A DNA stretch of 64,000 nt from a virus, in the UHGV virus genome UHGV-1366603. One strand, 5' to 3'. Made by a program: the position numbers and the translations under genes. This document shows, piece by piece, positions 8,051-57,682 of the stretch; the stretch's first letter is position 1; every line of letters starts with the position of its first letter. The notes under the pieces are model-generated. The model was given only the letters and a program-made list of their open reading frames with translations. It did not search any database and was not told where the DNA came from.

Positions 8051-8080
8051 TAGGTCGTTCCTTAGATCGGAAATGTAATC

Positions 8081-8102
8081 AGATATATTTTACTTAGGTG
8101 AG
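8081..8102 (+). promoter_or_regulatory. candidate phage promoter motif AGATATATTTTACTTAGGTGAG, followed by a hairpin at 8104..8130
   Basis: Member of a recurring AT-rich motif family (see findings); sits at the head of the plus-strand block. Confidence 0.3.
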
Positions 8103-12369: not shown

Positions 12370-12400
12370 GGTGGGGTGTAAGCCCCACCTTTTATTTTTT
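12370..12400 (+). terminator. rho-independent terminator (GGTGGGG-loop-CCCCACC + T-run)
   Basis: 7-bp GC stem followed by TTTTATTTTTT directly after the stop of 11787..12365. Confidence 0.6.
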
Positions 12401-12425
12401 GTTCGCTAACATTAAAAATAATCTC

Positions 12426-12447
12426 AGATATATATTACTCAGGTGAG
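12426..12447 (+). promoter_or_regulatory. candidate phage promoter motif AGATATATATTACTCAGGTGAG, followed by a hairpin
   Basis: Contains TATATTAC; lies between the terminator and the first secreted-protein gene; followed by hairpin AGAGTTAA-GAT-TTAACTCT. Confidence 0.35.
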
Positions 12448-12494: not shown

Positions 12495-12956
12495 ATGAAA
12501 ATCTTCACTTCCTTTTTAATCGCCCTTTTCGCAATCGGATTCAATACTGCACACGCCGCAATCAATAGCTGGGAACAACTACCGAACCCAGGTCAGACTG
12601 TTTACGAAATTGAAGACACCGCCGGAAACGGACTGTCTATCAACTGTGACACTGAAACTGCGAATCGCAAATTTTACGGTCGTATGGTTTGGTATTACGG
12701 GGAACCTGTAGGTGCAACTAACGCTGAAGACAACACGATGGATATCGTCGTAAATGGCAAAACCTACAACATCCCTACGGTGGATGGCAGTGACAAAGCA
12801 GAGCTCGCTTGGGTGGCTTTCGTTAACGCTATCGGTAACGCCAAAACTTTCAGTGTGAACATCAATGGTAACGAAGCTGCTAACTTTACCGTAGAAGGCG
12901 AACGTCTGTCTGAAACTTTCTTCCAGAACTGTGGACACACCCGTCCTAACAAATAA
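12495..12956 (+). CDS. small secreted protein (signal peptide)
   Basis: N-terminus MKIFTSFLIALFAIGFNTAHA (hydrophobic core, AxA site); SD GAGGAG; two Cys. Confidence 0.65.
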   Translation: MKIFTSFLIALFAIGFNTAHAAINSWEQLPNPGQTVYEIEDTAGNGLSINCDTETANRKFYGRMVWYYGEPVGATNAEDNTMDIVVNGKTYNIPTVDGSDKAELAWVAFVNAIGNAKTFSVNINGNEAANFTVEGERLSETFFQNCGHTRPNK

Positions 12957-12978
12957 GTAATAATCTTTTTTAGAGTGC

Positions 12979-13371
12979 GTGAAAATGAATATCAGAACTA
13001 TACTTTATTCAATCATTATTTTCTGTGCAATCGGTATTACTGGCACTTATGCTTTCGGCGATTCGGACGTCCGCCATTACGAACCGGCTCCTGACTCGCC
13101 CATTATCAACCCGGATGAGTCCCCTACGTTAATGCGCAGTTTCGGTAAACTGCAAGTTTATCGCTTAGTACGTGGTGAAACGTGTACCGGATTACTCATT
13201 GCTGACACCCGTGCACAGGTCTACCAACGTCTGACGGATATCGCCTGCGAACAACCAAAAGTCATGTCGGTCAGTATTCATCCGTTAGAGGTCGGTAACT
13301 ATACTGCTGTGGACTTCTTCCATAATGCAGAACTGATTGGTCGTATCACTTTAAATCGTAGCGCTGAATAA
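12979..13371 (+). CDS. small secreted or membrane-anchored protein
   Basis: N-terminal hydrophobic segment ILYSIIIFCAIGITGTYAFG; start may be GTG 12979 or ATG 12985. Confidence 0.55.
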   Translation: MKMNIRTILYSIIIFCAIGITGTYAFGDSDVRHYEPAPDSPIINPDESPTLMRSFGKLQVYRLVRGETCTGLLIADTRAQVYQRLTDIACEQPKVMSVSIHPLEVGNYTAVDFFHNAELIGRITLNRSAE

Positions 13372-13389
13372 TTTAATGGAGAATTTACA

Positions 13390-13872
13390 ATGAAACGTTT
13401 ACACACCCTGATGCTTTTCGTGGCTATTCTGTTCACAGGCTTTACCTTTAACACAGAAGCGGCTACCGTAAAACAAGCACTTAGCTGTAACCCGGAAGCC
13501 TGGGCTGAACAACCTGGTGCGTGTCCTGACATCAATACGCTCTATACCGACGACGCGACTTATAAAGCCGCAATCGATAAAGCGTTGAAACCTGTCGGAC
13601 TAGACGGGTTATTCGGTAAAGATGGTGTAATGAATGGTCCTGGCGGCGATGTTATTCCCGTGCAAATCAACGGTAAAGTCTGGCTTGAGTCTACCGCTTG
13701 CAAAAGCAATGCTTGTGGTTGGGAATACATCACGACGCTTTATAACCCGCAGACCCATGTCGTGGTAGGTTACTATTACAACGTCGACCCAGGTTACCTG
13801 GTCTGGTTCGGCGATATCGGCGTTAACGAATTCGCCTATCTGGTTAAGAAATACGTAGCTACGGTTAATTAA
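13390..13872 (+). CDS. secreted protein, Ivy-like (candidate periplasmic lysozyme / lytic-transglycosylase inhibitor)
   Basis: Signal peptide MKRLHTLMLFVAILFTGFTFNTEA. Loop ..ESTACKSNACGW.. matches the Ivy-family ..SACKPHDCG.. arrangement (C-x4-C with Lys at position 2), but the loop His is replaced by Asn. Confidence 0.45.
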   Translation: MKRLHTLMLFVAILFTGFTFNTEAATVKQALSCNPEAWAEQPGACPDINTLYTDDATYKAAIDKALKPVGLDGLFGKDGVMNGPGGDVIPVQINGKVWLESTACKSNACGWEYITTLYNPQTHVVVGYYYNVDPGYLVWFGDIGVNEFAYLVKKYVATVN

Positions 13873-13887
13873 TTTAAGGAGTCTGTC

Positions 13888-14298
13888 ATGAAAACGTTTA
13901 TCAAAACTTTACTCGTTGCTGTAACTGTTCTGTTCTCTCTTAACGTAGCAGCAAAAACAATAAAGCTACCGGCGGGTATCAAATACGTCAACAGTACCGA
14001 TGAATTCTACTGCACTGAAATTGACGGCCTGTATTGCCAGACAAAGAATTTGTTTGAATACAAAGGTAACAGATATGTTTTCGTTGTTGAGCAAGGTGGT
14101 GCCTGGTGCTACGACAGCCCTATGTCGGTACTCAACCTGGAAACTTGGAAAGCACAGAAAATTGAATACAAAGACAACCAACTGTGTTCAGGCGAAAACA
14201 AACCGTTCTTCAAAATCAAAAATGGTGTGCCGACTGTAGGTATTATCGACACCTCTGGAGCACCCATCGTTGTAGCTCAGGACAAACTTAAAATCTAA
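13888..14298 (+). CDS. small secreted protein (signal peptide, multiple Cys)
   Basis: N-terminus MKTFIKTLLVAVTVLFSLNVAA; SD AAGGAG. Confidence 0.65.
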   Translation: MKTFIKTLLVAVTVLFSLNVAAKTIKLPAGIKYVNSTDEFYCTEIDGLYCQTKNLFEYKGNRYVFVVEQGGAWCYDSPMSVLNLETWKAQKIEYKDNQLCSGENKPFFKIKNGVPTVGIIDTSGAPIVVAQDKLKI

Positions 14299-14308
14299 GG
14301 AGTAAACC

Positions 14309-14698
14309 ATGCGTCTTATCTGCGCTTTGTTGGCGTTTTTCTCAATCGGAGTTATGGCTTCTACACACATCGACGATTTATTACTTACCCCGGCAACGAA
14401 CACAGACTATCACTACAACCCACCGGGTTTTGAAGTCTGCGAAGGCGATGCAGGCGAATGCCAAGAAGTTGGCGCAGATGGACGCTATATACTCGTAAAA
14501 GCAGACGGCGGGACAACCTGCCCTGCGGGTTATTATTTCGTACTTGACGCTGTAGCAAAAGAGGTACTTCCTGTAACGACCAAAACGTGTGACCCCACAG
14601 TTGTACTAACGCTTGCGAAAAGCAAATCACGTGACCGCCATCTTATCGTCATCGAAGAACGCGGTGAGATGCTAGGCGCTATCGAATTAGATTACTGA
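14309..14698 (+). CDS. small secreted protein (signal peptide, Cys-rich)
   Basis: N-terminus MRLICALLAFFSIGVMAS; SD TAAGGAG. Confidence 0.65.
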   Translation: MRLICALLAFFSIGVMASTHIDDLLLTPATNTDYHYNPPGFEVCEGDAGECQEVGADGRYILVKADGGTTCPAGYYFVLDAVAKEVLPVTTKTCDPTVVLTLAKSKSRDRHLIVIEERGEMLGAIELDY

Positions 14699-15254: not shown

Positions 15255-15262
15255 TTAGCCCG

Positions 15263-15290
15263 GCCCCGCTGTGTACGGGGCTTCTTTTTT
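15263..15290 (+). terminator. rho-independent terminator (GCCCCG-loop-CGGGGC + TTCTTTTTT)
   Basis: Seen directly in the sequence after the stop at 15254. Confidence 0.55.
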
Positions 15291-15308: not shown

Positions 15309-15917
15309 ATGAACGAAATTACTTTGGTTCGTTTTATTGAAGCGATGCATCTAAACGAAGCTAATCCGCACTCTCCGTTATTCATCGATTTAATGGAGGA
15401 AGAAGTCGAAGGGTTCTTAGCGTACCCGCGTTTGAAAGACTACTTCGAACGTAAAACACCAACCGCTTACGAAAAGCTGATGTACGCGTTAGATAACCGT
15501 ACTACGCTAAACAATACGCCGTTTAAAGCGCTGGAAGCAATAGACCCTACCGGGGGTGCAGGTATCCCACAACGTGTTGTGTTCTACTACATCGACAACG
15601 GACGTATTAAAGCCGACGTTGTAAACTGGATCTCCGAAGGGGAAATCCCAGAAACGCGTACTTTTAACCTCTGTCCGGTAGAAGAAGGTTGGGTTGCAGG
15701 AACGCATTATTCCTATCCGTATCAAAGCATCAAATCACCTTATCTGTATCCGGTGTATTTAGATGACGTTACGCCAGGGAAATGTATTCCCGTTACCAAT
15801 CTGATTTGTTTACTGACGATGGAAGTTGTTGCGTCGGACGCAGGCCAGGCTTGGGTTGAGCAATCGAAGAATATCCAAAACTGGCAGGAGATGGGTTACA
15901 AACTCTATCAGCCGTAA
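15309..15917 (+). CDS. hypothetical protein (202 aa)
   Basis: ORF track; SD AAGGAAA; no motif recognised. Confidence 0.6.
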   Translation: MNEITLVRFIEAMHLNEANPHSPLFIDLMEEEVEGFLAYPRLKDYFERKTPTAYEKLMYALDNRTTLNNTPFKALEAIDPTGGAGIPQRVVFYYIDNGRIKADVVNWISEGEIPETRTFNLCPVEEGWVAGTHYSYPYQSIKSPYLYPVYLDDVTPGKCIPVTNLICLLTMEVVASDAGQAWVEQSKNIQNWQEMGYKLYQP

Positions 15918-15923
15918 TACCAC

Positions 15924-15970
15924 GAGAGAACCTTCGGGTTCTCTCCCTTCTCTTTTATTTTTTTTTCTTT
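15924..15970 (+). terminator. rho-independent terminator (GAGAGAACC-TTCG-GGTTCTCTC + long T-run)
   Basis: 9-bp stem, tetraloop, then TCTTTTATTTTTTTTTCTTTTT. Confidence 0.6.
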
Positions 15971-16002
15971 TTACACCACGCTCCGTGAATATGGAGGTGG
16001 AC

Positions 16003-18507
16003 ATGTTAAAAGTTGAACGTATTGTACTTAAAGGATTTACCGGAATGGGATTACACGAAATCGAAACCTTCGATTTTACTATCCATTCCCCGACCACCAT
16101 TATCCTCGGTGGTAACGGGTGCGGTAAGACCAGCTTACTGTCCGTGTTTCTACCTATCGCACCTTCGAAATCCGAATTCCGTGACGGGGGTTCTTACACC
16201 AACATCTGTTTGGTTAACGACCATCGTTACAAATTTAAGGTTGCACGTAAAGGCAACTCACTGGTTTGCGATATCGAGAACCTGACGACGGGTACCAAAA
16301 TCGTCGAACAAGGTAATGCGAAAGTGTATAACTCTCGTGTAGAAGAAATCACGGGCATTACAAAAGAGATTAAAGAGTTACTGAACGGAGAAGTGCTTTT
16401 AACGGATGCAGGAACGGAGCTGCGTCGTAAGTGGTTCTACCGTTTAAGTACGTCAGACTTAACTTACGCGTTAGGTTTTTATCAACGTTTACGAAAAAAC
16501 CTGACGATGCTAAACGGTGGTATTGAAATCACCAGCCGTAAAATTGCAGAGTTGCGTACCCGCGTAATTGATAACGAGGAAGAACGTCAGCAGTTAGCAA
16601 CACGGTTAAAAGCATTAGAAGTAGATTTACGTGAACTCAACAAACAGATTGAACAACTGCCTGGTCTGAATCGTGACGTTACGGTGGCAACTATTCAATC
16701 GCTATTGCTTAAAATCGAAGCACCGATTAATGCTATCTTGGAACACCGTGGCGGATTACCTACGGAAGAACAGGTAGAGGAAGCACGACGGATTGAAGCC
16801 ACTGCCCGTGAAGCGGTGGTCTCTGCTGAAACAGAACTATCCATGCTAAACAAAGATTTGTCTTTGTTGATGGACGAGTCCACTCGCCAAGATTACCTGA
16901 TGCGGAATCACGAGGGGTTAAAAAACACGGTTGCGAAACTGCGCGAGTTATTAAAGCAGTGGGACACTGAGCATCTTTTCCCTGAACTGTTTGCGGAGAC
17001 CGTTAACATCGACCAGCTTAAAGCAGCGACGGATGCGCGTGTCTGGGGACAACGTTTAGGAACAACGCTGGATGCTATTAAATCAACGGAACGGTTGAAC
17101 GTACTGGAAGAGAAACTGTTGACCTTAGACCAAAACTCATCTGGGTTGCGTGACCGGTTACAACGCGTTGAAAACGTATTGCAGAACCTCAACCACGAAC
17201 GGAATCACTATTTGGAAACTGCCGAGGTTGATTGTCCGCAGTGTCAATTTAAATTCCGTCCGGGTGTCCGTCGATCGCTGCCTGAATTGGAAGAAGCCAT
17301 TCGTGGTCAGATGGAGCAACGTAATACGTTACAGACTCAACTTGATTCCGTATTGCGAGACCGTACGGAATTAGAGTCAGACGTTAATTACATGCGTCAA
17401 GTACGGGAAATTGTTTTAACATACTCGAAAGACCCGGTATTGAGCTTGTTCTTTAAACGACTCCAGGAGCGGAATGTCTTTACGGATAACCGTAGTCAGT
17501 TTGGTAGTTTGTGCGCAGAGTTTGATCGTGAACTTTATTCTGCAATTGAGTACCACGAAACGAAACACCGTTTCGCTAAAGCGGAAAAAGAGTGGGAAAA
17601 TGCAGTTGCAGCGGTAGGTAACGTTGACGGTGCACTACAGCAGAAAATTGCCTTCCAGCAGGAACGTTTGGGTAAGGCAACAGAAACGCTCTCAGAGCGC
17701 CGTAGAGAGCACGCAGTTGCTAATGATACCTTTTGTTATCTAAACGAACTTAAAGCCACTGTAGACAATTTTAATGCGGTTTTTGAGCGTTTAGAGAACG
17801 ATGTTAAGGTAACATTAACCAACACGGTGGTCGAAACGTTATTAAACGCCCGAGAAAACAAGTTGGATGCGTTCACCACAGCACGGGAACGGTACCGTCA
17901 GATGGAAAACGAACTCAACCAACTTACTGCGTTAGAAAAGGAGTTATCAGATTTACAAGCGCAGCAATTCAATAACAAGCTGATGATTCAAGCGTTCTCA
18001 CCTGAGAAAGGGGTATTACGCAAATACTTCTACAACGCTATCGTGAGAATCACGGAATTGATGACGCGGTATATCGAACAAGTCTGGACCTACCCTATGC
18101 GGGTCATGCCGTGCGACTTAACCGACGGTGACTTAGACTACACGTTCCCAGTGCAGTTGAAAACCCATCCTGAGCCGGTACCTGACGTGCGGAAAGGGTC
18201 GAAAGCGCAGCGAGCCATCTTTAATTTGATGTTTCGTTTAACCGCTTACAAAGCCCTGAAACTTCATCAGTATCCGCTACTGTTGGATGAACCGTCAGAA
18301 GGGATGGATGAGGAACACCGAAATAACCTCGTCGGGTTTATTAAAACCCTGGCGAATTCCGGTGAGTTCTCTCAGTTACTGGTGGTATCTCACGAAGCAG
18401 AAATTCATTCAAAACTTAACGAAGCCGCATACTGTGTTATTGAACCTGAAGGCGTAACACTGCCTGCGGTATACAACGAGGGAGTAAAAATTGTCTACGC
18501 AAACTGA
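16003..18507 (+). CDS. Rad50/SbcC/gp46-like ABC ATPase with coiled coil and CPQC zinc hook
   Basis: N-terminal Walker A ILGGNGCGKTSLL; long coiled-coil middle containing ..VDCPQCQF..; C-terminal signature-like GSKAQRAIFNL, Walker B LLLDEPSEGMD and H-loop VVSHE. ATG at 16003 preceded by GGAGGTGG. Confidence 0.7.
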   Translation: MLKVERIVLKGFTGMGLHEIETFDFTIHSPTTIILGGNGCGKTSLLSVFLPIAPSKSEFRDGGSYTNICLVNDHRYKFKVARKGNSLVCDIENLTTGTKIVEQGNAKVYNSRVEEITGITKEIKELLNGEVLLTDAGTELRRKWFYRLSTSDLTYALGFYQRLRKNLTMLNGGIEITSRKIAELRTRVIDNEEERQQLATRLKALEVDLRELNKQIEQLPGLNRDVTVATIQSLLLKIEAPINAILEHRGGLPTEEQVEEARRIEATAREAVVSAETELSMLNKDLSLLMDESTRQDYLMRNHEGLKNTVAKLRELLKQWDTEHLFPELFAETVNIDQLKAATDARVWGQRLGTTLDAIKSTERLNVLEEKLLTLDQNSSGLRDRLQRVENVLQNLNHERNHYLETAEVDCPQCQFKFRPGVRRSLPELEEAIRGQMEQRNTLQTQLDSVLRDRTELESDVNYMRQVREIVLTYSKDPVLSLFFKRLQERNVFTDNRSQFGSLCAEFDRELYSAIEYHETKHRFAKAEKEWENAVAAVGNVDGALQQKIAFQQERLGKATETLSERRREHAVANDTFCYLNELKATVDNFNAVFERLENDVKVTLTNTVVETLLNARENKLDAFTTARERYRQMENELNQLTALEKELSDLQAQQFNNKLMIQAFSPEKGVLRKYFYNAIVRITELMTRYIEQVWTYPMRVMPCDLTDGDLDYTFPVQLKTHPEPVPDVRKGSKAQRAIFNLMFRLTAYKALKLHQYPLLLDEPSEGMDEEHRNNLVGFIKTLANSGEFSQLLVVSHEAEIHSKLNEAAYCVIEPEGVTLPAVYNEGVKIVYAN

Positions 18508-20170: not shown

Positions 20171-20695
20171 ATGCTTACCTCACTCGGTAAGACCGTTATG
20201 CTAACGATACTTCCAGAATCGGTTATTGACAACGACCTGTTTAACGCCCCTGAGCGCTTCAAGGTCGTTACGATAAATTGCGTAGGGGCAATGGGTCGGG
20301 GTATCGCTTTAGCGTGCAGAGAACGCTATCCTGGGCTTTATCAGGACTACCGGGAACGTTGCTTCGCTAACGAAATACGAATAGGGAATGTGTACGTTTA
20401 TCCCGAGGAAAACTGCATTCTCTTACCAACCAAAACACATTGGAAACTAAAATCCCAGGTTTCTTATGTTATCGCGGGTATCACCGCGTTGGCAGATGCC
20501 GCAGAAAACTTAGAGGGTGGGGTGGCTTTACCGCCGTTAGGGATGGCTAACGGTTGGTTGACAAAAGCTGAACGTCAACAAATCTTTTTGTTTATCGAAA
20601 AGAAACTCGTACCGAGGAGACAACATTACCGTTTCTATTTACCCGATACGCTTTATCAAGAAGCAAAACCTTTAATTCCAAACCTTTTTAAATAG
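20171..20695 (+). CDS. macrodomain protein, TARG1/DarG-like (putative ADP-ribose hydrolase)
   Basis: ..VVTINCVGAMGRGIALACRERYPGLY.. resembles TARG1 ..[24 protein letters not shown]..; downstream ..ILLPTKTHWK.. and ..VALPPLGMANGWL.. parallel TARG1 ..LITKKRASHK.. and ..LSMPRIGCGLDRL.. Start may be ATG 20171 or 20201. Confidence 0.5.
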   Translation: MLTSLGKTVMLTILPESVIDNDLFNAPERFKVVTINCVGAMGRGIALACRERYPGLYQDYRERCFANEIRIGNVYVYPEENCILLPTKTHWKLKSQVSYVIAGITALADAAENLEGGVALPPLGMANGWLTKAERQQIFLFIEKKLVPRRQHYRFYLPDTLYQEAKPLIPNLFK

Positions 20696-20795
20696 ATATT
20701 ATCATTAGGGCACACAACAAAGGAGTTCCAGCTGTCCGCGCCGTGATTTCGTTCTACGGAACACGGAAATGTATAAATCCAACTGGAGAACTAGT

Positions 20796-21482
20796 ATGTT
20801 TCGTATTTTCTTTCTTTTACTGGTAACACTTTTCGCGTTTAACGCATACGCATCCAAATCCGCACCCAGTGCCAAACACCATCGTGAATTCGAAATGATT
20901 CAAGACCGTTTCGAACGTGTAAAACCGTTGATTGTGGAAATCTCCCGAAAGCAGGGCGTCGATCCTAAGTTGATGACCACGCTAATCTATCGGGAATCGC
21001 GGTTTAATCCGAAGGCGTATAATCGAACGTCTAAAGCGCACAGTCTGGTTCAGATGCTACCGAGCACAAAGCGTAATTTGCTAAAACTCTACGGTGCCGA
21101 AATCGGACTTAGTCGTAACGCGGATTTGTATAATCCTCGTAATGCGGTGCTATTGGCTTCCGTCTACGTTAAACATTTAGAAAAGGGGTTGACTAAACGA
21201 CTCAAACGCAAGCCCACTATTGCAGAAATTGCATTGGCTTATCACTGGGGTGAAAGTGGTGCACACGCCAGGATTAAAAGCAAGTCTCGGGCAGCACAAC
21301 GAGAAATGGCGAGCTTTATGAAAGATGCAACGTTCTACAGTGCGAAAATCGACAAGCCTGTAGCATCTCGTCAGCTTGCGTTTGCGAAGAAACCAGAACG
21401 CCAGATTCAGTTAGCGGAAGTTAACCGAATTTGGGATACGATAAACACCAGTTTTCCATTTAAACAAGGAGTCACCCTTTGA
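20796..21482 (+). CDS. secreted soluble lytic transglycosylase (SLT domain), endolysin candidate
   Basis: Signal-peptide-like N-terminus MFRIFFLLLVTLFAFNAYA; SLT motifs ..LIYRESRFNPKA.. (catalytic Glu-Ser) and ..AHSLVQMLPST..; ATG at 20796 has GGAGAA upstream (ORF-track start at 20769). Confidence 0.65.
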   Translation: MFRIFFLLLVTLFAFNAYASKSAPSAKHHREFEMIQDRFERVKPLIVEISRKQGVDPKLMTTLIYRESRFNPKAYNRTSKAHSLVQMLPSTKRNLLKLYGAEIGLSRNADLYNPRNAVLLASVYVKHLEKGLTKRLKRKPTIAEIALAYHWGESGAHARIKSKSRAAQREMASFMKDATFYSAKIDKPVASRQLAFAKKPERQIQLAEVNRIWDTINTSFPFKQGVTL

Positions 21483-38723: not shown

Positions 38724-38757
38724 TTAAAACCACCTCATTTTCAAAAAGAAGTCAGAC

Positions 38758-50545: not shown

Positions 50546-53500
50546 TTAACCTGCACGTCTAACGTTAAGCTGTCGTGCTGGCTGTTCAACGGACATTTGT
50601 CGTGATGCTGAACCTGCTGGTGCCATAGGTTGAGCCGATGCGGTGTTTTGTACCGGTTGTGGACGTTGCTTAAGGATCGTGACAATCTCTTTGAGATAAC
50701 CCGCCGATTCTTTCGCAACAGCCAACTGCTGAACACTAATCGGATCGCCACTGCTAAGTGTAGGTCCGTTTTGTGCATCAGAAGTAACCGCAGGTGCCGG
50801 TTTACTCGTCGCTGCTGCGCGCTGCACAGCACCTTCTTTCACCTTCTCGACATCTTCTTCAGGCAACCCTTCATTTCTGGCTCCAGTTGCAACAGTCTCC
50901 CCAATCATAGAGGCGTCACCGCCTGCACTACTACCGCCAGGTGACGGTACTGCTGGACCACCACTGGTTGCAGCTTTGACGTTGTCCGCACCCATTGCAC
51001 CTTTCTCTGCTAACGCTTCATCACGACGCGCAGCATTGGACGCAGGCAAGTTATCCGTCGCTCCAGAAATTGATGGATCGTTAGCTGCCCCTGCTGCTAC
51101 CGCCGGAGAGGAGGCAACCGCAGGCGTTAGCCCTTTCACCATGTCTTTCGTTGAAGCTGGGTTAGCCGCAATTTCGTTTGTCGCCACAGCACCCATACGG
51201 CGGTTCAGTTCATTAATAACTTCACCAACAGTACGAATACGAACAATCTGCTTGCCGCGCATTTCGTAGAAGACCCCCTTATTACCACTAAGGATTTGAG
51301 GAGTAATGCCTTCTGCTTTGTCGGCTGGCATGTTCGGATTCTGCCGCCATGCATTAAGGAACTTCTTACCACCGCCTGGGCCCAAGAAGTGATACAGATA
51401 CGCAACAGCCGGAGGCGGTTCTACACCACCTAAGTCTTTCTGCGCCTGCATGATATTGTCACGAATAAACTGTACCCCGAGGATGGTATTTGCCCACGGG
51501 TCGTACTGGTTTACTTGCGGTATACCGTACCGACGAGAGTACCCTTTCATCATTCCAGACCACGTTTTGTCAATGAACTGGAACAACCCTGCTGCTGACG
51601 CACCTGGGTTCTTGACACCATATTTGAAATCAGATTCGGCTTTCGCCATCGCAATCGCGACCGCAGGCGGAACACCTAAGGTATTTGCGACATCCGCAAT
51701 CATCGCTTTAACGCCTTCTACGTTAGGTGACTTACCATCACCCAGTTTGCTGATTGGATACTTCTCAGCCAAGGTTTTGTAATCACCTTCTTTGACGTCC
51801 CCGAGTTTAATCCCGGATTGGCCCGTAGAGAACTTCGCGTAATTGCTAATACCCATCTCACCCACAACTTGAGACAGATCACCCGGTGTACCGTAAGACG
51901 ACCCACCGTTTGGCAAGTACCCATCCTTAGACGCTGTACCCCAATCAACAACACCTTTGAAACGATCTTTGGTGTCTTCGTCGGTTTGGTACATTCTCGT
52001 CGCACGATCGGCTTTCTGCCACTTCGCACGTTTACCTGCTGCGGGTGTAGACCGCAGGGTATCACGAACAGCCAGGTCAGGTTCTTTGGACAGTTCTTTC
52101 AGGTTGGCAAGTTCAGTAGCAACAGAACCTGCGTCGGTGTTTGCTTCTTCACCCAGTGGGTTGAACGGAATCTCCCACACGGACTGACGAATACCACCCT
52201 TCATGTTGTAAGCGCCACGAATCATCAACGCCAATTCGTACATGAACCCACCGGATACTTTCAGTTCGGTAGGGTCTGCTTGCGGAATGTAACGTTTCAG
52301 ACCAACGACGTAGGTCATATACGCCGGTAAGAAACGGTTGTAGAACCAGTTCTTACAACGCTCCTCTTTAGGACCACCTATCAGGTCAGGCGAGATAACC
52401 GCAATGGCTTCTTTCCAGTTGCCTTTATAGGTACAGTTCTTCACATCAATGTCTTTCAACACGTTCTTCTCTAACAGTGTGAAAAGATTACGCGTTGTTT
52501 GGTTGATAGTAACCGCACCGTAGGTTTTCCACCTGACCGATTCCAGGTCTTCCAAATCACTTTTCTTCGGTAAGGAATGCCAGTCAACTTGGATTTGAAC
52601 CTGTTCAGTTCCGTCTTCCCAACCTTCGACCTTCGCAACTTTCTCGTTACGTTCAGCATCTGCATTCGCCAGTACCTGACTGGTTTCAGCAACGGACGCA
52701 ACTTTGTGGCCTTCGACAGCATCACGCATACCTGAACGTTGTTTCCGTTTGTCGTCAGTACGCATGTTGATTGACCGCCACACACGTTCCTGTGCTTCGA
52801 CAACCTCTTCCCCTGACAAGAACTCTGCCGGAGTAAAGGTAACGAAATCCCACGCTTTAGAGAACCAACCCTGGTTAACTTTACGCGGGTCAGTCAATGA
52901 ACGGAATTCCGCAGAATCTTTACCCATCTTCATTTTGTTGTAGAGGGTAATCATATCCGCTTTCGACACTTTCTTCGGATCACCAACATCTGCCAAAGCG
53001 ATGTCGTTATCCATCGACTTCAGTGCTGAAATCCAGCGGAGGTAAATCGGTGCGAAACGTTGTAGCATAAACGCAGTAAATGCTAACATCTCACCACGTT
53101 CTTCCAAGTTTACACCGAACCCTTCTGCGAGTTTCTTCACGTCTTCGGAAGACAAGCCACGTAATTGTGCTTCACCCCCTTCGGTATACGAGACGTAAGG
53201 TTTCAAAGCGTCTTCTAAATAACGGGCTTTCATACCGTCTTCAGAAGACCACTGGTCGTAGTCACGGAAACCGTATTGTGCCAGACGCATATAGTCGAGG
53301 TACTGTGCTTTCACACGGGTAGCGCATTTATACGCCCAATAACCCAGACCAGCGGCAGTCGCACCGATCGCAATTGCAGGCCAACCCACCGCAGCCACTA
53401 CCGTAGATGCAGCCGAGGCTACCGCAGTCACTGCCGGTACCGCTAAACGTTGTACAGCAAACTTACCAACGTTCCACGCTGCTTTACCGAGGAACCCGGT

Positions 53501-56500
53501 AGGTTTAAAAATACCCCACTTCGCAACTTTGCCCAGTATCGAACCCACCGTACCTAAGATACTCACGATTGGTCCTACTAACGGTAAGTCTTTGAGGAAG
53601 TCCATCACCCCGCCTTTACGTCCTTTCTGCTCAGCGGTTTTCTTGGCTTTCTCTTCTTCCTTAGAACGTCTACGACGACGGAAGAATTGGAAGTAGTCAC
53701 GTTTTTCATCGTTGGCTGCCGGTTTGTTACGTTGTCCGAACTTACTGAACATCGTACGAATCAGGCCATCAGGTGCACCAGCACGTTCCGCAGAGTCACG
53801 CATGGTGTTAAACCAGGACATTTCCTGGAGGTTAACCATCCGGTTTAAACGTTCCAATAATGCTGAACCAACACTCTTCGCTTTCTGCTTACCTTTGTTG
53901 ATAACGCGTCCTGCGGTATCCGTTGCGGTTTCGAAATCCTCCTTCGCTGCGTTAAACACGCGTGTTGGAGAAACCTTACCACGAGCGTACAAGTGTTGAC
54001 GGTAAAACTCCGCAACGTCATCATCACGACCCGCTAAACGCGACTCCGCCCGATAACGTGTGGCAATATCGTAGCGTGGGTCACGGAAGCTATCTACTGT
54101 TTCACCAAAGCGCCCACGGAAACGGTCAAACCACCCTTTACCCGCAGCGCCCCAACGAGACAGTCTATCGCCAACGCCATGACGGAAACGTGAGAATCGG
54201 TCACGTTGTCTGCCTCGCCAATCCCGGAAATTCTGGAAGTAATCTTTAAATCCGTCGCGGAAATCCTTAACACGGTTAAGCATCCCTTTGATAGATTTCG
54301 AGCCAACGTTTTTCTCCAGTTGCTCCGTCCAGGATTCATCTTCAGGCTCACCGTCTAAACGACGGTTAAGGAGTTTATAGATACGAATCAGGATATGGTT
54401 GGTCTTACGGCCATTCGACCAAGAGAACATGCTGAAGCCACCGCCAGAACCACCTTCCTTACGATTCTGCCACCACCGGGTAAGCGGGTTGTCGGTCGCT
54501 AACTCTTTGAATTTCTCAAAGCCACGTTTTGCATTGTTCCACAAACGAGCAGGCATTCCGGTTACGCGAGAAATCATGCTTTGTAAACGTGTTTTCTCAC
54601 TCCCCTCAGGAATCTCATTAAGCCACTCACGCGCTTTCTCGAAGATAGACGCTGCTCTTGGCGAGATTAGACCAATCAGTTTCTTCGGTAAGTTAACAGC
54701 TTTGTTTACTGCTGTACCTGCTTTACCGGAGATATACTGGAACAGGGCCTGGAGTTTACCGCCTTTATAGAAGCGCAGTTTACCCGCAGCCGCTAAGTCT
54801 GCCGCTGCGAGAATCAAGTTCCCGGCTTCGTCAACAATATCACGACCCAGCTTAATGTCGTCTAACGAGCGGAGTTGTACCAGCTTGTTGGTTTTAGGGT
54901 CAGCCTGATAATACTCACCTGCCTCTAAACGGCTTCCTTGTAAAACAACATTGCCTTTCTCGTCGTAGATGTCCCGAACACCAAGAACACCTTTCCCGAA
55001 GGCGACCGCCGAATTCCAGCCTGTGGACAACGTACCAGTAACTAAACCTTTCAGTCGTTCAAAAACACCTGGACCGTCAGATGGCCCACCGGAGAATTTC
55101 CCACGAATAAAACTGCCCAGTGACTGTAAACGCCCTTTCCCTCTCAGGAACATGTTCTTCGCAAAACGACCCGCGCCCGTACCGGTGTCCCAAAGTACGC
55201 CCGCCCAACGACGGAACAGCCCACTTTCACCAAGCACGATGCGTTTACGCTTGCGTTTGTTACCGGTGCTACCTGCATCTTCAGAAGCGTCACCCTCGTC
55301 ACCGTCACGACCACCACCTAAGCTGGCCAGCAGGATACCTTCCTCATCCATGTTCTTAACATGTTTCAGAATTTCCTGCACGGTGTTGGATTCGGACTTA
55401 TTACGAATAGCATCAACGATTCTATCAAACTGTTGCTCTAACCCTGCGGTGGTATCAGGACGTTCGCTTAGCAGTTCAACAAAGTTGGTAGATTTTTCAC
55501 CGTAGAGGACAGCAGCAAGTTGTCGTGCCGACAGTCCACGGCCACCGCGACCGCCTTTACCTTTAACGGTGTCAATTGTCGACTCGTCACCGGTTACGGA
55601 GGCGTCTACCCCTAAACGACGTAAATAGTCACCTAGCGCAGAACCGTTTTTCAGTTTGCGCTGGATTTCTTGTTCACGCGTTAACGAACGACCGGAACGG
55701 GTTTTCCCCATGGCCAGGTCGTTATACAGCGTATACGGATCGTTAATGTCTTTATCTACATCAAACCGATCGTTCTTCGCATCGTACTTAAAGATACCTG
55801 CATCACGTAACGCATTCTCACCGTAGATAATTGAAGCTTCGTCTACCGTGTTTTGACGTGCACGAATTGTTGACTGAATGGCCGAAATCTTACCAGCGAT
55901 TTCGTTGCTAAGTTCGTGATGACCGCCTGTCAGTTCTGAAGACCGTGCTTCTAAGACCGCCTGAATCGCTTCTACCGCGTTTGCATTCATGTAACGATAC
56001 ATGTGCATCGGGTCTTTCAGCAGACTGCCTACGTCGAACGCCTTACCTTCAGACGCACGTGATTCGATATAGTCCGCCAGCGCTTGGCGAGTTTTCGAAT
56101 CCAGAGTTTTGTCTTTGTCGATAAAGTCAACGGTTTCGTTAATGTACTGCTGTAAACGCTTCCGCTGTTCATCGTTCGCAACCGCTTTACGGACACGGTT
56201 GCCGACAACTTTACGGTCAATCATCCCACGCGTGGTTAAATCGTACACCTGGTCGTGGTGTTCGCCGTACCCGCGACGAATAGATTTGTTAATCTCCGTC
56301 AGCAAAGTCGGGATGACTTCCGTGATGCTAAGATACGCTTTACGGTCGAACTTCGCAGCGGCGGATAACGCTTCTGCTGAACGTTCTTCTAAAGCTAATC
56401 CCTCACGACGCAGCGGTGTCACTAACCCCATCTCGTGCATTAAACGGAAGACGGTGGCCAGTGGGCCGTCTATCTCACCAGCAATCGCCGAGTTAGAGAT

Positions 56501-57682
56501 AGAAGATAAGTTACCGAACCCGTAGCGTGCCAACTGAAGCCGTTTCATGACTTCTGGGTTCTTTTCTAACTCACTGCGTGTCCAGTTCTGTAAACGTTCT
56601 ACCTGAGGTTGTAAGAACCGTTTTGCTAACCAACTACCGGCAAACCCTGCGACTTTACCTCGGGAATTCGTACGACGACGTTCTGGCGACAGTGTAGAAC
56701 TGTCTTCCATGCCGAAGTCGTCTTCCTGACTCATTGACAGAACTTGTTCTAATATCCCGCGTCCGTCGCTGAAGATATTCGAAATCTTTTTCTTCGCGTT
56801 CTCACGAATCTGATCAATAAAGTTATCCGCGTAACGCAAGGGGTTCATCCATTCGGCAGCTTTACGTTTTACGTTAGCCCAACGAACTTCAGAGAATTCC
56901 TCTTTTGCGTAGTCCGGCAACGCGGTGTTTTTAACAATCGCTTCAAGTGCCGGGGTGTTACGGCTAAACTCATCCTGTTTAAGTTTAGCAATATCTTGCA
57001 ACGCGAATAACGTACGGTATTGCAGCTCTAGCTGTTTACGCTGAACGTTAAGCATTACCCCGCGACTTAAACTGGTCGTCAGGTTAACGTCTTTCGCAAT
57101 ACCGATAACCGTCTGGAACAGCGCATCGGACTTCATGTCCTTGATGGTGTCACGAAGACGGTCTTCTACCATTCCTTCCTGAACTTCACGTTGTTGTTCA
57201 GGTGTTTGTGGCGTACCTGCAAAAACAGAGTCTAACTCACGATCCATTAACGCTTGTTTAGGATCGTAATTCCCGTAATCGTACTGGTCGCTTTTCGCCC
57301 ACTTGTCGATCTTACGGGTTACACTGTCAGGCAAATACCGTTTTAGGGTTGGGCCTAACTGACGAGCTTGTGCCTTCACCACACGGGAGGTCTTTTCAAT
57401 CTCGTCTTTCGTATGGGCCAGAATGTCTTGACCTGCGGCTTTGACGTTCTTATAACCTTCATAAGCGTCAGTCGCCGGTTTTGGCATTCCTTTTAAAATG
57501 ACCTGATCACGTTTATTTTCGGGCCAGATAGTCGACAACGCCGACTTACGGGCAGCACGAAATGTGTCCATGACCGGGTTACGCGATTGGTCTTGTTGAC
57601 GAGGGGGCTCATCAAAATCGTCCCAGTCGTCCATGTTATCAAGATCGATTTCATCGAAATCGTCTTTACCTTTTTTAGCCAT
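50546..57682 (-). CDS. giant virion-type protein (2378 aa) with C-terminal lytic transglycosylase (SLT) domain
   Basis: SLT motifs ..AMAKAESDFKYGVKNPGASAAGLFQFIDKTW.. and ..AYLYHFLGPGG.. (coding ~51290..51720); acidic N-terminus; Gly/Arg repeats; Ala/Pro-rich C-terminal tail. Confidence 0.8.
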   Translation of the reverse strand: MAKKGKDDFDEIDLDNMDDWDDFDEPPRQQDQSRNPVMDTFRAARKSALSTIWPENKRDQVILKGMPKPATDAYEGYKNVKAAGQDILAHTKDEIEKTSRVVKAQARQLGPTLKRYLPDSVTRKIDKWAKSDQYDYGNYDPKQALMDRELDSVFAGTPQTPEQQREVQEGMVEDRLRDTIKDMKSDALFQTVIGIAKDVNLTTSLSRGVMLNVQRKQLELQYRTLFALQDIAKLKQDEFSRNTPALEAIVKNTALPDYAKEEFSEVRWANVKRKAAEWMNPLRYADNFIDQIRENAKKKISNIFSDGRGILEQVLSMSQEDDFGMEDSSTLSPERRRTNSRGKVAGFAGSWLAKRFLQPQVERLQNWTRSELEKNPEVMKRLQLARYGFGNLSSISNSAIAGEIDGPLATVFRLMHEMGLVTPLRREGLALEERSAEALSAAAKFDRKAYLSITEVIPTLLTEINKSIRRGYGEHHDQVYDLTTRGMIDRKVVGNRVRKAVANDEQRKRLQQYINETVDFIDKDKTLDSKTRQALADYIESRASEGKAFDVGSLLKDPMHMYRYMNANAVEAIQAVLEARSSELTGGHHELSNEIAGKISAIQSTIRARQNTVDEASIIYGENALRDAGIFKYDAKNDRFDVDKDINDPYTLYNDLAMGKTRSGRSLTREQEIQRKLKNGSALGDYLRRLGVDASVTGDESTIDTVKGKGGRGGRGLSARQLAAVLYGEKSTNFVELLSERPDTTAGLEQQFDRIVDAIRNKSESNTVQEILKHVKNMDEEGILLASLGGGRDGDEGDASEDAGSTGNKRKRKRIVLGESGLFRRWAGVLWDTGTGAGRFAKNMFLRGKGRLQSLGSFIRGKFSGGPSDGPGVFERLKGLVTGTLSTGWNSAVAFGKGVLGVRDIYDEKGNVVLQGSRLEAGEYYQADPKTNKLVQLRSLDDIKLGRDIVDEAGNLILAAADLAAAGKLRFYKGGKLQALFQYISGKAGTAVNKAVNLPKKLIGLISPRAASIFEKAREWLNEIPEGSEKTRLQSMISRVTGMPARLWNNAKRGFEKFKELATDNPLTRWWQNRKEGGSGGGFSMFSWSNGRKTNHILIRIYKLLNRRLDGEPEDESWTEQLEKNVGSKSIKGMLNRVKDFRDGFKDYFQNFRDWRGRQRDRFSRFRHGVGDRLSRWGAAGKGWFDRFRGRFGETVDSFRDPRYDIATRYRAESRLAGRDDDVAEFYRQHLYARGKVSPTRVFNAAKEDFETATDTAGRVINKGKQKAKSVGSALLERLNRMVNLQEMSWFNTMRDSAERAGAPDGLIRTMFSKFGQRNKPAANDEKRDYFQFFRRRRRSKEEEKAKKTAEQKGRKGGVMDFLKDLPLVGPIVSILGTVGSILGKVAKWGIFKPTGFLGKAAWNVGKFAVQRLAVPAVTAVASAASTVVAAVGWPAIAIGATAAGLGYWAYKCATRVKAQYLDYMRLAQYGFRDYDQWSSEDGMKARYLEDALKPYVSYTEGGEAQLRGLSSEDVKKLAEGFGVNLEERGEMLAFTAFMLQRFAPIYLRWISALKSMDNDIALADVGDPKKVSKADMITLYNKMKMGKDSAEFRSLTDPRKVNQGWFSKAWDFVTFTPAEFLSGEEVVEAQERVWRSINMRTDDKRKQRSGMRDAVEGHKVASVAETSQVLANADAERNEKVAKVEGWEDGTEQVQIQVDWHSLPKKSDLEDLESVRWKTYGAVTINQTTRNLFTLLEKNVLKDIDVKNCTYKGNWKEAIAVISPDLIGGPKEERCKNWFYNRFLPAYMTYVVGLKRYIPQADPTELKVSGGFMYELALMIRGAYNMKGGIRQSVWEIPFNPLGEEANTDAGSVATELANLKELSKEPDLAVRDTLRSTPAAGKRAKWQKADRATRMYQTDEDTKDRFKGVVDWGTASKDGYLPNGGSSYGTPGDLSQVVGEMGISNYAKFSTGQSGIKLGDVKEGDYKTLAEKYPISKLGDGKSPNVEGVKAMIADVANTLGVPPAVAIAMAKAESDFKYGVKNPGASAAGLFQFIDKTWSGMMKGYSRRYGIPQVNQYDPWANTILGVQFIRDNIMQAQKDLGGVEPPPAVAYLYHFLGPGGGKKFLNAWRQNPNMPADKAEGITPQILSGNKGVFYEMRGKQIVRIRTVGEVINELNRRMGAVATNEIAANPASTKDMVKGLTPAVASSPAVAAGAANDPSISGATDNLPASNAARRDEALAEKGAMGADNVKAATSGGPAVPSPGGSSAGGDASMIGETVATGARNEGLPEEDVEKVKEGAVQRAAATSKPAPAVTSDAQNGPTLSSGDPISVQQLAVAKESAGYLKEIVTILKQRPQPVQNTASAQPMAPAGSASRQMSVEQPARQLNVRRAG

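What the first reader, a model, noticed from the sequence alone, without database searches (positions are those of the whole stretch)
13390..13872. Ivy-like periplasmic protein: candidate lysozyme / lytic-transglycosylase inhibitor in a phage
After its signal peptide the protein has ..GKVWLESTACKSNACGWEYIT.., which mirrors the Ivy inhibitory loop context ..TYQVMSACKPHDCGSQRI.. (same C-x4-C spacing and ACK..CG frame). The loop His that plugs the lysozyme active site is Asn here, so the target may differ; Ivy homologues are reported to inhibit lytic transglycosylases in some bacteria. The phage encodes at least two SLT enzymes in this window (20796..21482 and the giant protein), so a phage-borne inhibitor could time lysis or block cell-wall attack by superinfecting virions.
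Basis: partly seen in the sequence, partly recalled or inferred. Interest (0 to 1): 0.6.

Follow-up and report, generated by a model that had tools for sequence, protein, structure and literature searches.

The report
Divergent Ivy-like periplasmic protein, jumbo phage
A jumbo phage of enterobacteria carries, in what looks like an early operon of small secreted proteins, a distant relative of the bacterial lysozyme inhibitor Ivy that it shares almost unchanged with common E. coli genomic islands; this suggests, but does not prove, that it blocks a cell-wall-cutting enzyme in the periplasm.

Summary

The window comes from an SPN3US-like jumbo phage. The gene lies in a five-gene cluster of small secreted proteins, behind a conserved phiKZ-type early-promoter motif. 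It replaces an unrelated gene found at that position in SPN3US. It is 94.6% identical in DNA to an allele in E. coli CP4-like islands, and its two-gene module occurs in 2366 of 5426 complete E. coli genomes.

The loop is the most conserved block of the family. The window allele has Asn where relatives and Ivy have His.

No function has been tested. The likeliest role is loop-insertion inhibition of a lysozyme or lytic transglycosylase, possibly that of incoming virions, as T4 Spackle does. I rate it a new variant of a known kind, of moderate interest.

The parts
12370..12399 (+). Terminator-like hairpin plus T-run that closes the upstream gene and marks the 5' boundary of the cluster
   Evidence: 8-bp stem with 6 GC pairs, followed by TTTTATTTTT.
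12425..12445 (+). phiKZ-type early-promoter-like motif CAGATATATATTACTCAGGTG at the head of the small-secreted-protein cluster
   Evidence: The pattern YARRYAKATATTAYNNNNGTG was taken from the published OBP/N1M2/201phi2-1/phiKZ early-promoter consensus (PMC7058600, Table 2). It matches 5 sites in the window against 0.41 expected, and 0 of 100 shuffles reach 5. Perfect matches lie at the syntenic position in SPN3US (L007 7687) and in a second phage lineage (L017 4618). Promoter function and timing are inferred.
12495..12956 (+). First gene of the cluster: a secreted 153-aa protein homologous to E. coli CP4-57 YfjT
   Evidence: BLASTP against K-12 YfjT: 26% identity over 135 aa, E 3e-14. phrog_3429, E 1e-6.
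12979..13371 (+). Small secreted protein, homologue of SPN3US gp180 (phrog_9424)
13378..13381 (+). Shine-Dalgarno GGAG for the Ivy-like gene
   Evidence: Read directly from the sequence.
13390..13872 (+). Ivy-like gene: 160-aa precursor, predicted 136-aa periplasmic mature protein with 4 Cys
   Evidence: ORF. Pfam Ivy E 0.025, 15.1 bits, below the cut-off. Homology established. Fold. dN/dS 0.1-0.2.
13390..13461 (+). Signal peptide (residues 1-24, predicted cleavage TEA|AT)
   Evidence: Sequence features. M1, K2, R3, L4 and other signal-peptide positions are invariant in the family.
13486..13524 (+). Extra N-terminal Cys pair C33...C45 (a presumed second disulfide), absent from canonical Ivy
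   Evidence: Invariant in the family and nearly invariant in distant relatives, many of which carry C-x(6-7)-CPY. It falls in a 16-residue insertion relative to Ivy. The disulfide itself is inferred.
13699..13716 (+). Predicted inhibitory loop C104-K-S-N-A-C109, equivalent to Ivy CKPHDC
   Evidence: C104, K105 and C109 are invariant across this family plus 22 Ivy orthologues. The block 104-111 is the most conserved of the family. In the model it lies between strands 96-104 and 112-119.
13888..14298 (+). Partner gene: secreted 136-aa four-Cys protein, homologue of SPN3US gp182 (phrog_8968). It travels with the Ivy-like gene as a two-gene module in E. coli islands.
14309..14698 (+). Secreted 129-aa four-Cys protein, homologue of SPN3US gp183 (phrog_5248). 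A domain of the same family is fused to an Ivy-like domain in Klebsiella plasmids.
15262..15290 (+). Terminator-like hairpin plus T-run, the likely 3' end of the transcription unit
20796..21482 (+). SLT-domain protein, homologue of the SPN3US putative endolysin gp198. A candidate target only.
   Evidence: Pfam SLT E 4e-14; synteny with SPN3US_0198. Any link to the Ivy-like protein is speculative.
50546..57682 (-). 2377-aa tail protein with a C-terminal SLT domain (virion-associated cell-wall-cutting enzyme). A candidate target only.
   Evidence: phrog_3201 tail fibre protein and phrog_4067 transglycosylase; Pfam SLT E 1e-8. Any link is speculative.

Best explanation
[quoted passage not shown] Homology, predicted fold and export signal are shown by computation.

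The rest is inferred. The mature 136-aa protein folds in the periplasm into the Ivy five-stranded sheet with flanking helices. It is held by two disulfides: C104-C109 closing the loop, and C33-C45 in an extra N-terminal segment. It presents the rigid loop CKSNAC between two antiparallel strands and, like Ivy, inserts this loop into the active-site cleft of a lysozyme-fold peptidoglycan glycosidase, blocking it stoichiometrically. Because His is replaced by Asn and Pro and Asp are lost, the target is probably not hen-type lysozyme. A lytic transglycosylase or another muramidase is more likely.

The gene lies behind an early-type promoter of an SPN3US-like jumbo phage, among other small secreted proteins. 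The same allele sits in E. coli islands rich in anti-phage and anti-restriction genes. The most likely role is therefore to neutralise cell-wall-cutting enzymes that arrive from outside, above all the virion-borne SLT or lysozyme domains of superinfecting phages. That would be superinfection exclusion for the phage and defence for the island, functionally parallel to T4 Spackle. It probably works together with the adjacent four-Cys protein.
For: Homology:
- The family profile finds 58 proteins at E<=1e-3 among 1.84 billion.
- In the 31-sequence alignment of the full-length distant relatives plus three close-family sequences, 26 match Pfam Ivy at E<=0.01, best 7.6e-12.
- hhalign of that extended family against canonical Ivy gives 98.6% probability, E 1e-15.
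- A Klebsiella plasmid protein that is 31% identical over 146 aa (E 5e-24 pairwise; 2e-16 in the database search) passes the Pfam Ivy cut-off and is annotated as Ivy family.

Fold:

Loop and selection:
- C104, K105 and C109 are invariant across both families.
- The loop block is the most conserved part of the close family.
- dN/dS is 0.1-0.2.

Export: a Sec-type signal peptide.

Timing and context:
- A conserved early-promoter-like motif heads the cluster, and terminators flank it.
- The gene replaces an unrelated gene at the same position in SPN3US.
- The allele has been exchanged with E. coli islands recently.

Precedents:
- The Ivy loop CKPHDC is essential for inhibition (PMC4262234, citing Abergel 2007).
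- Ivy proteins inhibit P. aeruginosa MltB (PMC10746161 and PMC10139938, citing Clarke 2010).
- T4 Spackle is an early periplasmic inhibitor of the tail lysozyme (PMC7677548).
Against: - No activity, binding partner or target has been tested.
- The window protein lacks the His, Pro and Asp of CKPHDC. According to PMC5526577, the Ivyp2 paralogue of P. aeruginosa has no in vitro inhibitory capacity against lysozyme, although PMC10746161 states that both Ivyp1 and Ivyp2 inhibit c-type lysozyme and MltB.
- E. coli Ivy is only a weak inhibitor of MltA and MltB in vitro (PMC10139938).
- PADLOC has no model for this protein or its neighbours.
- There is no sign of co-variation with the phage SLT. Between the two phage lineages the SLT protein is 83% identical and the Ivy-like protein 63%.
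- dN/dS gives no gene-wide signal of an arms race.
- Early timing rests on a promoter motif carried over from other phiKZ-like phages, not on transcript data.
- The high-confidence model is not independent evidence for the fold, because Ivy sequences were in its alignment.
Confidence: 0.45

Rival explanations
1. It inhibits the host's own lytic transglycosylases, or the phage's endolysin-type SLT protein. This would stabilise the sacculus during the long jumbo-phage cycle or delay lysis. This is the reader's 'time lysis' idea and matches the proposed housekeeping role of Ivy.
For: Ivyp1 and Ivyp2 inhibit P. aeruginosa MltB, and Ivy is induced with the Rcs regulon when lytic transglycosylases are overproduced (PMC10139938, PMC10746161). 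The phage encodes an SLT-domain endolysin homologue 7 kb downstream, itself preceded by a weaker early-promoter-like motif at 20689.
Against: [quoted passage not shown] An early periplasmic inhibitor of the phage's own endolysin would oppose release of progeny. SPN3US itself lacks the gene, so it is dispensable for the basic cycle. The same allele lives in chromosomal islands without any phage lysis genes.
Confidence: 0.15
2. It is a host-fitness gene that protects the carrier bacterium against animal lysozymes in the gut, like canonical Ivy. The phage and the islands carry it as cargo.
For: It belongs to the Ivy superfamily. Its hosts are gut enterobacteria. The phage genome turns up as a circular replicon of about 222-225 kb in isolate assemblies of E. 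coli, Enterobacter and Salmonella, which suggests a carrier state. Some E. coli alleles keep the His (CKAHAC).
Against: E. coli already has canonical ivy, and the Rcs-induced lysozyme inhibitor MliC (PMC10139938). The window allele lacks the His, Pro and Asp of the loop that mutagenesis showed to be essential for lysozyme inhibition (PMC4262234). Placement behind an early lytic-cycle promoter motif, in a phage type with no detected integrase in this window, is odd for a host-benefit gene.
Confidence: 0.15
3. It is not an enzyme inhibitor. The Ivy fold serves as a periplasmic binding or chaperone module that acts with the four-Cys proteins of the cluster on some other envelope component, for example a receptor, a porin, or part of the injection or secretion machinery.
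For: In four Klebsiella plasmids an Ivy-like domain is fused through a Pro/Ala-rich linker to a four-Cys domain. That domain matches phrog_5248 at E 3e-4 and window ORF 14309 at E 0.004 with all four Cys aligned. The Ivy-like gene always sits next to a four-Cys gene in phages and islands. SPN3US has four such genes and no Ivy-like gene. RefSeq annotates K-12 Ivy as 'periplasmic chaperone, inhibitor of vertebrate C-type lysozyme'.
Against: The strongest conservation in the family falls on the disulfide loop that is the inhibitory element of Ivy. No function is known for the four-Cys family: it has no PDB or Pfam match and no detectable relation to Ivy.
Confidence: 0.2
4. The resemblance to Ivy is a chance motif match, and the protein has an unrelated fold.
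For: The protein itself scores below the curated thresholds: Pfam 15.1 vs 21 bits, NCBIfam 19.9 vs 180 bits. The unbiased model has low confidence (pLDDT 60.5).
Confidence: 0.02

Closest known systems
Ivy, inhibitor of vertebrate lysozyme (E. coli YkfE/Ivy, P. aeruginosa Ivyp1; Pfam PF08816; PDB 1GPQ, 1XS0, 1UUZ)
   Same: Homologous (hhalign 98.6%). Periplasmic and of similar size. Predicted five-stranded antiparallel sheet with flanking helices. A C-x4-C disulfide loop starting with CK lies between two strands at the aligned position.
   Different: Only about 18-25% identity, and below the Pfam and NCBIfam cut-offs. The loop is CKSNAC rather than CKPHDC: Pro, His and Asp are lost. A 16-residue N-terminal insertion carries an extra Cys pair. 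The SIDGKT segment before the C-terminal helix is missing. The gene is carried by a jumbo phage and by mobile islands rather than being a core chromosomal gene. No activity is known.
Divergent Ivy branch with loops such as CEAHNC, CEPHNC and CQAHNC and an N-terminal C-x(6-7)-CPY pair (uncharacterised proteins found; includes the Klebsiella plasmid protein WP_228706714.1)
   Same: These are the nearest relatives outside the close family (19-35% identity). They share the N-terminal Cys pair, the C-x4-C loop, and the LY.P....VG.Y....WFG core.
   Different: Most keep His at loop position 4 and Asn at position 5, with Glu or Gln at position 2. The window protein has Lys at 2, Asn at 4 and Ala at 5. 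Several are multidomain proteins of 300-440 aa. None is characterised.
P. aeruginosa Ivyp2-type paralogues (CExxDxC loop)
   Same: Ivy-family proteins that depart from the CKPHDC motif. Reported to inhibit the lytic transglycosylase MltB (Clarke 2010, as cited in PMC10139938 and PMC10746161). This is a precedent for a changed loop going with a changed target.
   Different: Their loop is one residue longer (C-x5-C, per PMC4262234). They are chromosomal Pseudomonas genes. I did not compare them directly by sequence here.
T4 Spackle (gp61.3)
   Same: What it may work like: a small, disulfide-containing periplasmic protein with a signal peptide, encoded by a phage and made early. Spackle blocks the virion tail lysozyme of superinfecting phage (PMC7677548, PMC7650644).
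   Different: No homology. Spackle is a 75-aa alpha-helical bundle that acts allosterically and by partly blocking the cleft, not by loop insertion (PMC7677548). The function of the protein studied here is untested.
MliC/PliC, PliG and PliI lysozyme inhibitors
   Same: Periplasmic beta-rich proteins that insert a loop into the lysozyme active site (PMC7677548).
   Different: They are different families. Pfam gave no hit to them for this protein or its neighbours.

Membership tests
Ivy family (Pfam PF08816) | Whole-protein score at or above the Pfam gathering cut-off (21 bits) | tested here: not met
   The window protein scores 15.1 bits, E 0.025, residues 90-133 against profile positions 36-79. 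Eight of 12 close relatives give similar sub-threshold hits. A 31%-identical Klebsiella homologue scores 23.9 bits. In the 31-sequence extended alignment, 26 sequences match at E<=0.01, best 7.6e-12.
Ivy family (NCBIfam NF007443, equivalog 'Ivy family C-type lysozyme inhibitor') | Score at or above 180 bits, meaning an orthologue with the same function | tested here: not met
   19.9 bits, E 5e-4. The protein is not an equivalog of Ivy.
Ivy superfamily (homology) | Statistically supported common ancestry with canonical Ivy | tested here: met
   hhalign of the close family against Ivy orthologues: 92.2%, E 6e-7. Extended family against Ivy: 98.6%, E 1e-15. BLASTP against K-12 Ivy: E 2e-5. Transitive link through WP_228706714.1.
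Ivy superfamily (fold) | Five-stranded antiparallel beta-sheet flanked by helices, as in PDB entries 1UUZ and 1XS0 | tested here: met
Ivy family | Disulfide-closed C-x4-C loop between two strands | tested here: met
   C104 and C109 are invariant in the family and aligned with the Ivy loop cysteines. The loop lies between strands 96-104 and 112-119 in the model. The disulfide bond itself was not tested.
Ivy family (canonical lysozyme-inhibiting subgroup) | Strictly conserved CKPHDC motif, including the active-site-plugging His | tested here: not met
   The window protein has CKSNAC. Close relatives have CKANAC, CKANTC or CKAHAC. PMC4262234 reports that CKPHDC is strictly conserved in 30 Ivy members and essential for inhibition.
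Ivy family | Periplasmic location through a cleavable signal peptide | tested here: met
   Sec-type signal features are present and conserved. This is judged from sequence rules only; no predictor or experiment was used.
Ivy family | Inhibition of C-type lysozyme and/or lytic transglycosylase | not testable with these tools
   Needs biochemistry.
T4 Spackle family | Sequence or fold similarity to gp61.3 (alpha-helical bundle) | tested here: not met
   The predicted fold is a beta-sheet with helices, and Ivy is the best PDB match. No PHROG, Pfam or PDB sequence hit to Spackle. The similarity would be functional only.
Known anti-phage defence systems (PADLOC-DB 2.0) | Match to any defence-system protein model | tested here: not met
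   No hit for the protein, its four neighbours or the Klebsiella fusion at E<=1.

The most novel reading that the evidence does not exclude
The Ivy-like protein, together with the adjacent four-Cys secreted proteins, forms a periplasmic exclusion cassette. It blocks the virion-borne lytic transglycosylase or lysozyme of incoming phages, so that DNA injection fails. Jumbo phages would use it early in infection for superinfection exclusion. The CP4-like islands of nearly half of complete E. coli genomes would use the same gene as an unrecognised envelope-level anti-phage defence. This would give the Ivy superfamily a phage-directed function, and it would be the first periplasmic exclusion factor described for phiKZ/SPN3US-type phages.
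Probability: 0.2. Interest if true: 0.8.

Novelty: new variant of a known kind. Interest (0 to 1): 0.55.

Why it matters
- Ivy proteins are known as chromosomal lysozyme and transglycosylase inhibitors of Gram-negative bacteria, and their physiological role is still debated.
- A divergent Ivy branch carried by a jumbo phage and exchanged with widespread E. coli islands is annotated as 'hypothetical protein' in nearly every record seen here (a few carry a spurious DNA polymerase III name). It has no counterpart in 50,697 deposited phage genomes or in the BFVD viral structure set.
- If it inhibits virion-borne cell-wall enzymes, it would be a second, evolutionarily independent solution to the job done by T4 Spackle.
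- It would also add an envelope-level defence gene present in 2366 of 5426 complete E. coli genomes.
- That would matter for jumbo-phage therapy of Salmonella and E. coli.
- If it instead inhibits host transglycosylases or animal lysozyme, it still widens the specificity range of the Ivy loop and offers natural His/Asn variants for structure-function work.

Tried and rejected
1. YfjS or YfjT of CP4-57 as the identity of this protein or its partner: no similarity. Instead the upstream ORF 12495..12956 is the YfjT homologue.
2. The four-Cys neighbours as hidden, very divergent Ivy-like proteins: hhalign gives 3.7% and 1.2% probability, so I rejected this. The family also has no meaningful PDB sequence hit.
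3. The beta-1,4-mannanase 3vup as a relative. It was the top PDB sequence hit (E 0.002 for the single sequence, 0.03 for the profile). It is a local match inside a TIM-barrel enzyme and neither Pfam nor the fold searches support it, so I treat it as chance.
4. Homologues in deposited phage genomes: megablast found nothing. tblastn found only hits at E>=1, in Brevundimonas jumbo phages and mycobacteriophages, which I did not follow up.
5. phrog_13619, a weak hit for the query, turned out to be canonical E. coli Ivy itself (E 2e-96), so it is not evidence for a phage Ivy family.
6. The short phiKZ motif TATATTAC alone is not enriched (2 sites found, 1.9 expected). Only the extended consensus is.
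7. Gene-wide diversifying selection: dN/dS is 0.1-0.2, so there is none.
8. Co-variation between the Ivy-like protein and the phage SLT protein across two lineages: uninformative (83% vs 63% identity).
9. The afdb50 fold library was unavailable. The papers by Abergel 2007 and Clarke 2010 are not held, so their content is cited second-hand.
10. The word-indexed protein searches found only close relatives and frameshifted fragments.
11. The genome-contig scan found only a Shigella flexneri representative. It used patterns specific to the close family, so it says little about distant relatives.
Full report
**1. The observation**

ORF 13390..13872 (+) is real. It has an ATG start, GGAG at 13378-13381, 160 codons, and begins 19 nt after the stop of the preceding gene. 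The quoted peptide GKVWLESTACKSNACGWEYIT is residues 95-115.

The N-terminus has two positive charges, a 14-residue hydrophobic core and a TEA|A cleavage-type site with no lipobox Cys. The product should therefore be a soluble periplasmic protein of about 136 aa, pI 4.6, with four Cys.

Pairwise dN/dS across ten distinct alleles is 0.1-0.2. This is a protein-coding gene under purifying selection.

**2. Is it Ivy-like?**

On its own the protein misses the curated thresholds. Pfam Ivy gives 15.1 bits against a cut-off of 21 (E 0.025). NCBIfam NF007443 gives 19.9 bits against 180. The weak hits are in a constant register, however, and recur in 8 of 12 close relatives.

- BLASTP against K-12 Ivy gives E 2e-5 over 52 residues centred on the loop.
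- A profile of the close family against 22 Ivy orthologues gives hhalign probability 92%, E 6e-7, over 83 columns. These run from the helix before the sheet to the fifth strand.
- tblastn against plasmids found a bridging sequence, a 312-aa Klebsiella protein annotated 'Ivy family c-type lysozyme inhibitor'. It is 31% identical to the query over 146 aa (E 5e-24 pairwise, 2e-16 in the database) and passes the Pfam Ivy cut-off at 23.9 bits.
- The exhaustive HMMER search of 1.84 billion representatives with the family profile found 58 proteins at E<=1e-3.
- I aligned the full-length distant relatives (19-35% identity) with three close-family sequences, 31 in all. Of these, 26 match Pfam Ivy at E<=0.01, best 7.6e-12.
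- That extended alignment against canonical Ivy gives 98.6% probability, E 1e-15.

Homology with Ivy is therefore established. Orthology with Ivy is not.

**3. Fold**

The second model is not independent evidence for the fold, because Ivy sequences informed it. It shows only that the sequence fits the fold. Model coordinates could not be inspected, so disulfide geometry and loop exposure remain inferred.

**4. How it differs from Ivy**

In the joint alignment, L71, C104, K105, C109 and L137 are invariant across both families.

- The loop has Ivy's length and keeps Cys-Lys...Cys. It reads CKSNAC instead of CKPHDC.
- Close relatives read CKANAC, CKANTC or CKAHAC.
- Distant relatives mostly read CEAHNC, CEPHNC, CQAHNC, CKPHAC or CKAHDC.
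- His at loop position 4 is thus the ancestral and usual state, and the Asn of the window allele is derived.
- Within the close family the block 104-111 is the least variable part of the protein (1.38 residue types per site against 1.9-2.8 elsewhere). That fits a functional loop.
- The branch also has a 16-residue N-terminal insertion with an extra Cys pair, C33 and C45. This appears as C-x(6-7)-CPY in many distant relatives.
- It lacks the SIDGKT segment of Ivy.

According to PMC4262234, citing Abergel 2007, CKPHDC is strictly conserved in 30 Ivy members and essential for inhibition, and five other members carry CExxDxC.

**5. Genomic setting**

The window belongs to an SPN3US-like (phiKZ-type) jumbo phage.

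- It has split multisubunit RNA polymerase beta subunits, one of them 86.6% identical to that of SPN3US.
- It has virion structural proteins, a 2377-aa tail protein with an SLT domain, and an SLT-domain homologue of the SPN3US putative endolysin.
- Near-identical DNA exists as circular records of about 222 kb labelled plasmids in E. coli and Enterobacter ludwigii, and as 223-225 kb contigs in Salmonella isolates and metagenomes.

The Ivy-like gene is the third of five tightly spaced genes for small secreted proteins (12495-14698). Strong terminator-like hairpins bracket them at 12370-12399 and 15262-15290. A perfect match to the extended early-promoter consensus of phiKZ-like phages precedes them at 12425-12445. 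That motif has 5 sites in the window against 0.41 expected (consensus from PMC7058600). It is conserved at the syntenic site in SPN3US and in a second lineage. Early expression is thus inferred, not shown.

In SPN3US the four syntenic genes gp180-183 all belong to a loosely related family of four-Cys secreted proteins (phrog_9424, 17072, 8968 and 5248). The gene at the Ivy position, gp181, is not Ivy-like. No deposited phage genome has an Ivy-like homologue, and the BFVD viral structure set has no similar fold. IMG/VR does hold five jumbo-phage contigs with the gene, in two lineages, and the one I inspected, L017, has the same synteny.

**6. Exchange with bacterial islands**

The Ivy-like gene plus the downstream four-Cys gene match 2366 of 5426 complete E. 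coli genomes at 60-90% DNA identity. Nearly all matches are chromosomal.

In the copies I inspected the pair lies in a CP4-type island, between dynamin, RdcB and patatin genes on one side and the DUF932, antirestriction, RadC and CbeA/CbtA block on the other.

The window allele is 96% identical in protein and 94.6% in DNA to the allele of E. coli VE-T9 (dS about 0.2). The adjacent partner gene is only 75% and 79% identical (dS about 0.7). Between the two phage lineages the neighbouring genes are 76-95% identical in protein but the Ivy-like gene only 63%. Together these point to allele replacement of the Ivy-like gene alone, between phages and islands, and fairly recently.

The close family is essentially confined to Escherichia and Shigella and their mobile elements.

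In four Klebsiella plasmids an Ivy-like domain is fused through a Pro/Ala-rich linker to a four-Cys domain. That domain matches phrog_5248 at E 3e-4 and ORF 14309 at E 0.004 with all four Cys aligned. This is a moderate hint that the two kinds of protein work together.

**7. Mechanism**

Shown: homology, predicted fold, an export signal, a conserved loop, purifying selection and the gene context.

The loss of His, Pro and Asp argues for a target other than hen-type lysozyme. Ivy proteins are reported to inhibit the lytic transglycosylase MltB (Clarke 2010, via PMC10139938 and PMC10746161), although E. coli Ivy is only weak against MltA and MltB (PMC10139938).

Four points lead me to rank neutralisation of incoming virion-borne SLT or lysozyme activity first, at about 0.45 when combined with the generic 'muramidase inhibitor' claim:

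- The promoter is of the early type.
- The gene keeps company with other secreted proteins.
- It is absent from SPN3US.
- It is shared with islands that carry anti-phage genes.

T4 Spackle is the functional precedent: an early periplasmic inhibitor of the tail lysozyme, with an unrelated fold (PMC7677548).

The rivals are control of host transglycosylases or of lysis timing (0.15), protection from animal lysozyme as a carrier-state fitness gene (0.15), and a non-inhibitory binding role with the four-Cys partners (0.2). Chance resemblance is effectively excluded (0.02).

Several points count against the leading idea:

- PADLOC has no hit.
- There is no gene-wide positive selection.
- There is no informative co-variation with the phage SLT protein.
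- There are no functional data at all.

**8. Verdict**

The functional part remains a reasonable hypothesis, and I would shift it from 'lysis timing' towards 'early periplasmic protection or exclusion'.

This is a new variant of a known kind. It is a divergent Ivy-superfamily branch with an altered loop and an extra disulfide. It is carried by jumbo phages and exchanged with very common E. coli islands, and nearly every record seen here labels it 'hypothetical protein'. Interest 0.55.

Noticed in passing
window 8080-8100, 12425-12445, 20689-20709, 30156-30176, 38753-38773 (all + strand): Matches to the extended early-promoter consensus of phiKZ-like phages (YARRYAKATATTAYNNNNGTG): 5 sites against 0.41 expected. 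The site at 20689 lies directly upstream of the SLT-domain gene 20796..21482, which would be unexpected for a late endolysin.
   Followed up: partly
whole window; NZ_CP173450.1, NZ_CP134650.1 (L001); contigs listed: This SPN3US-like jumbo phage genome appears as a circular 'plasmid' or contig of about 222-225 kb in isolate assemblies of E. coli, Enterobacter ludwigii and several Salmonella serovars. That suggests a carrier state or pseudolysogeny and a broad host range. It had no megablast match in the 50,697-record phage collection over the 2.4-kb region tested.
   Followed up: partly
window 12495-12956 (+): A secreted 153-aa homologue of E. coli CP4-57 YfjT (26% identity, E 3e-14). It is present in this phage and in lineage L017 but not at the syntenic position in SPN3US. 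It is a second gene shared between the phage cluster and CP4-type islands.
   Followed up: partly
window 12979-13371, 13888-14298, 14309-14698; L007 7784-9493 (SPN3US gp180-183): A loosely related family of small secreted proteins with two or four conserved Cys (phrog_9424, 17072, 8968, 5248), present as tandem paralogues in SPN3US-like phages and as single copies in E. coli islands. It has no Pfam, PDB or PADLOC match and its function is unknown.
   Followed up: partly
L005 5998-6936 (Klebsiella sp. plasmid NZ_CP017451.1; also CP067932.1, NZ_CP084804.1, NZ_CP116215.1): A 312-aa natural fusion: an Ivy-like domain (loop CEQGNC), a Pro/Ala-rich linker, then a four-Cys domain. It sits in a yfjP/yfjR-like island context on large Klebsiella plasmids (three typed conjugative).
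   Followed up: partly
L002 11813-12490; L015 5698-6483 (E. coli island copies): In the chromosomal copies the annotated ORF carries an in-frame N-terminal extension of about 65 aa with its own hydrophobic segment (MKLPVKLLMSLISLVSVIARAGEY...) ahead of the MKRLH signal peptide. This could be a mis-called start or a real upstream element. Many database entries are frameshifted fragments of this region.
   Followed up: no
L017 4688-5059: The second jumbo-phage lineage has an extra 123-aa ORF inserted between the early-promoter motif and the YfjT-like gene. The window lacks it.
   Followed up: no
ON529852.1 347433-347705 and three related Brevundimonas jumbo phages: Weak tblastn hits (28% identity over about 60% of the query, E about 1) in four related Brevundimonas jumbo phages of about 350 kb. 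They could be very distant Ivy-like genes or noise.
   Followed up: no
window 15826-18507 (+): An SbcC/SMC-like ATPase (phrog_77, E 1e-92). The listed ORF starts at a TTG well upstream of the likely true start, since the homologues are about 835 aa.
   Followed up: no
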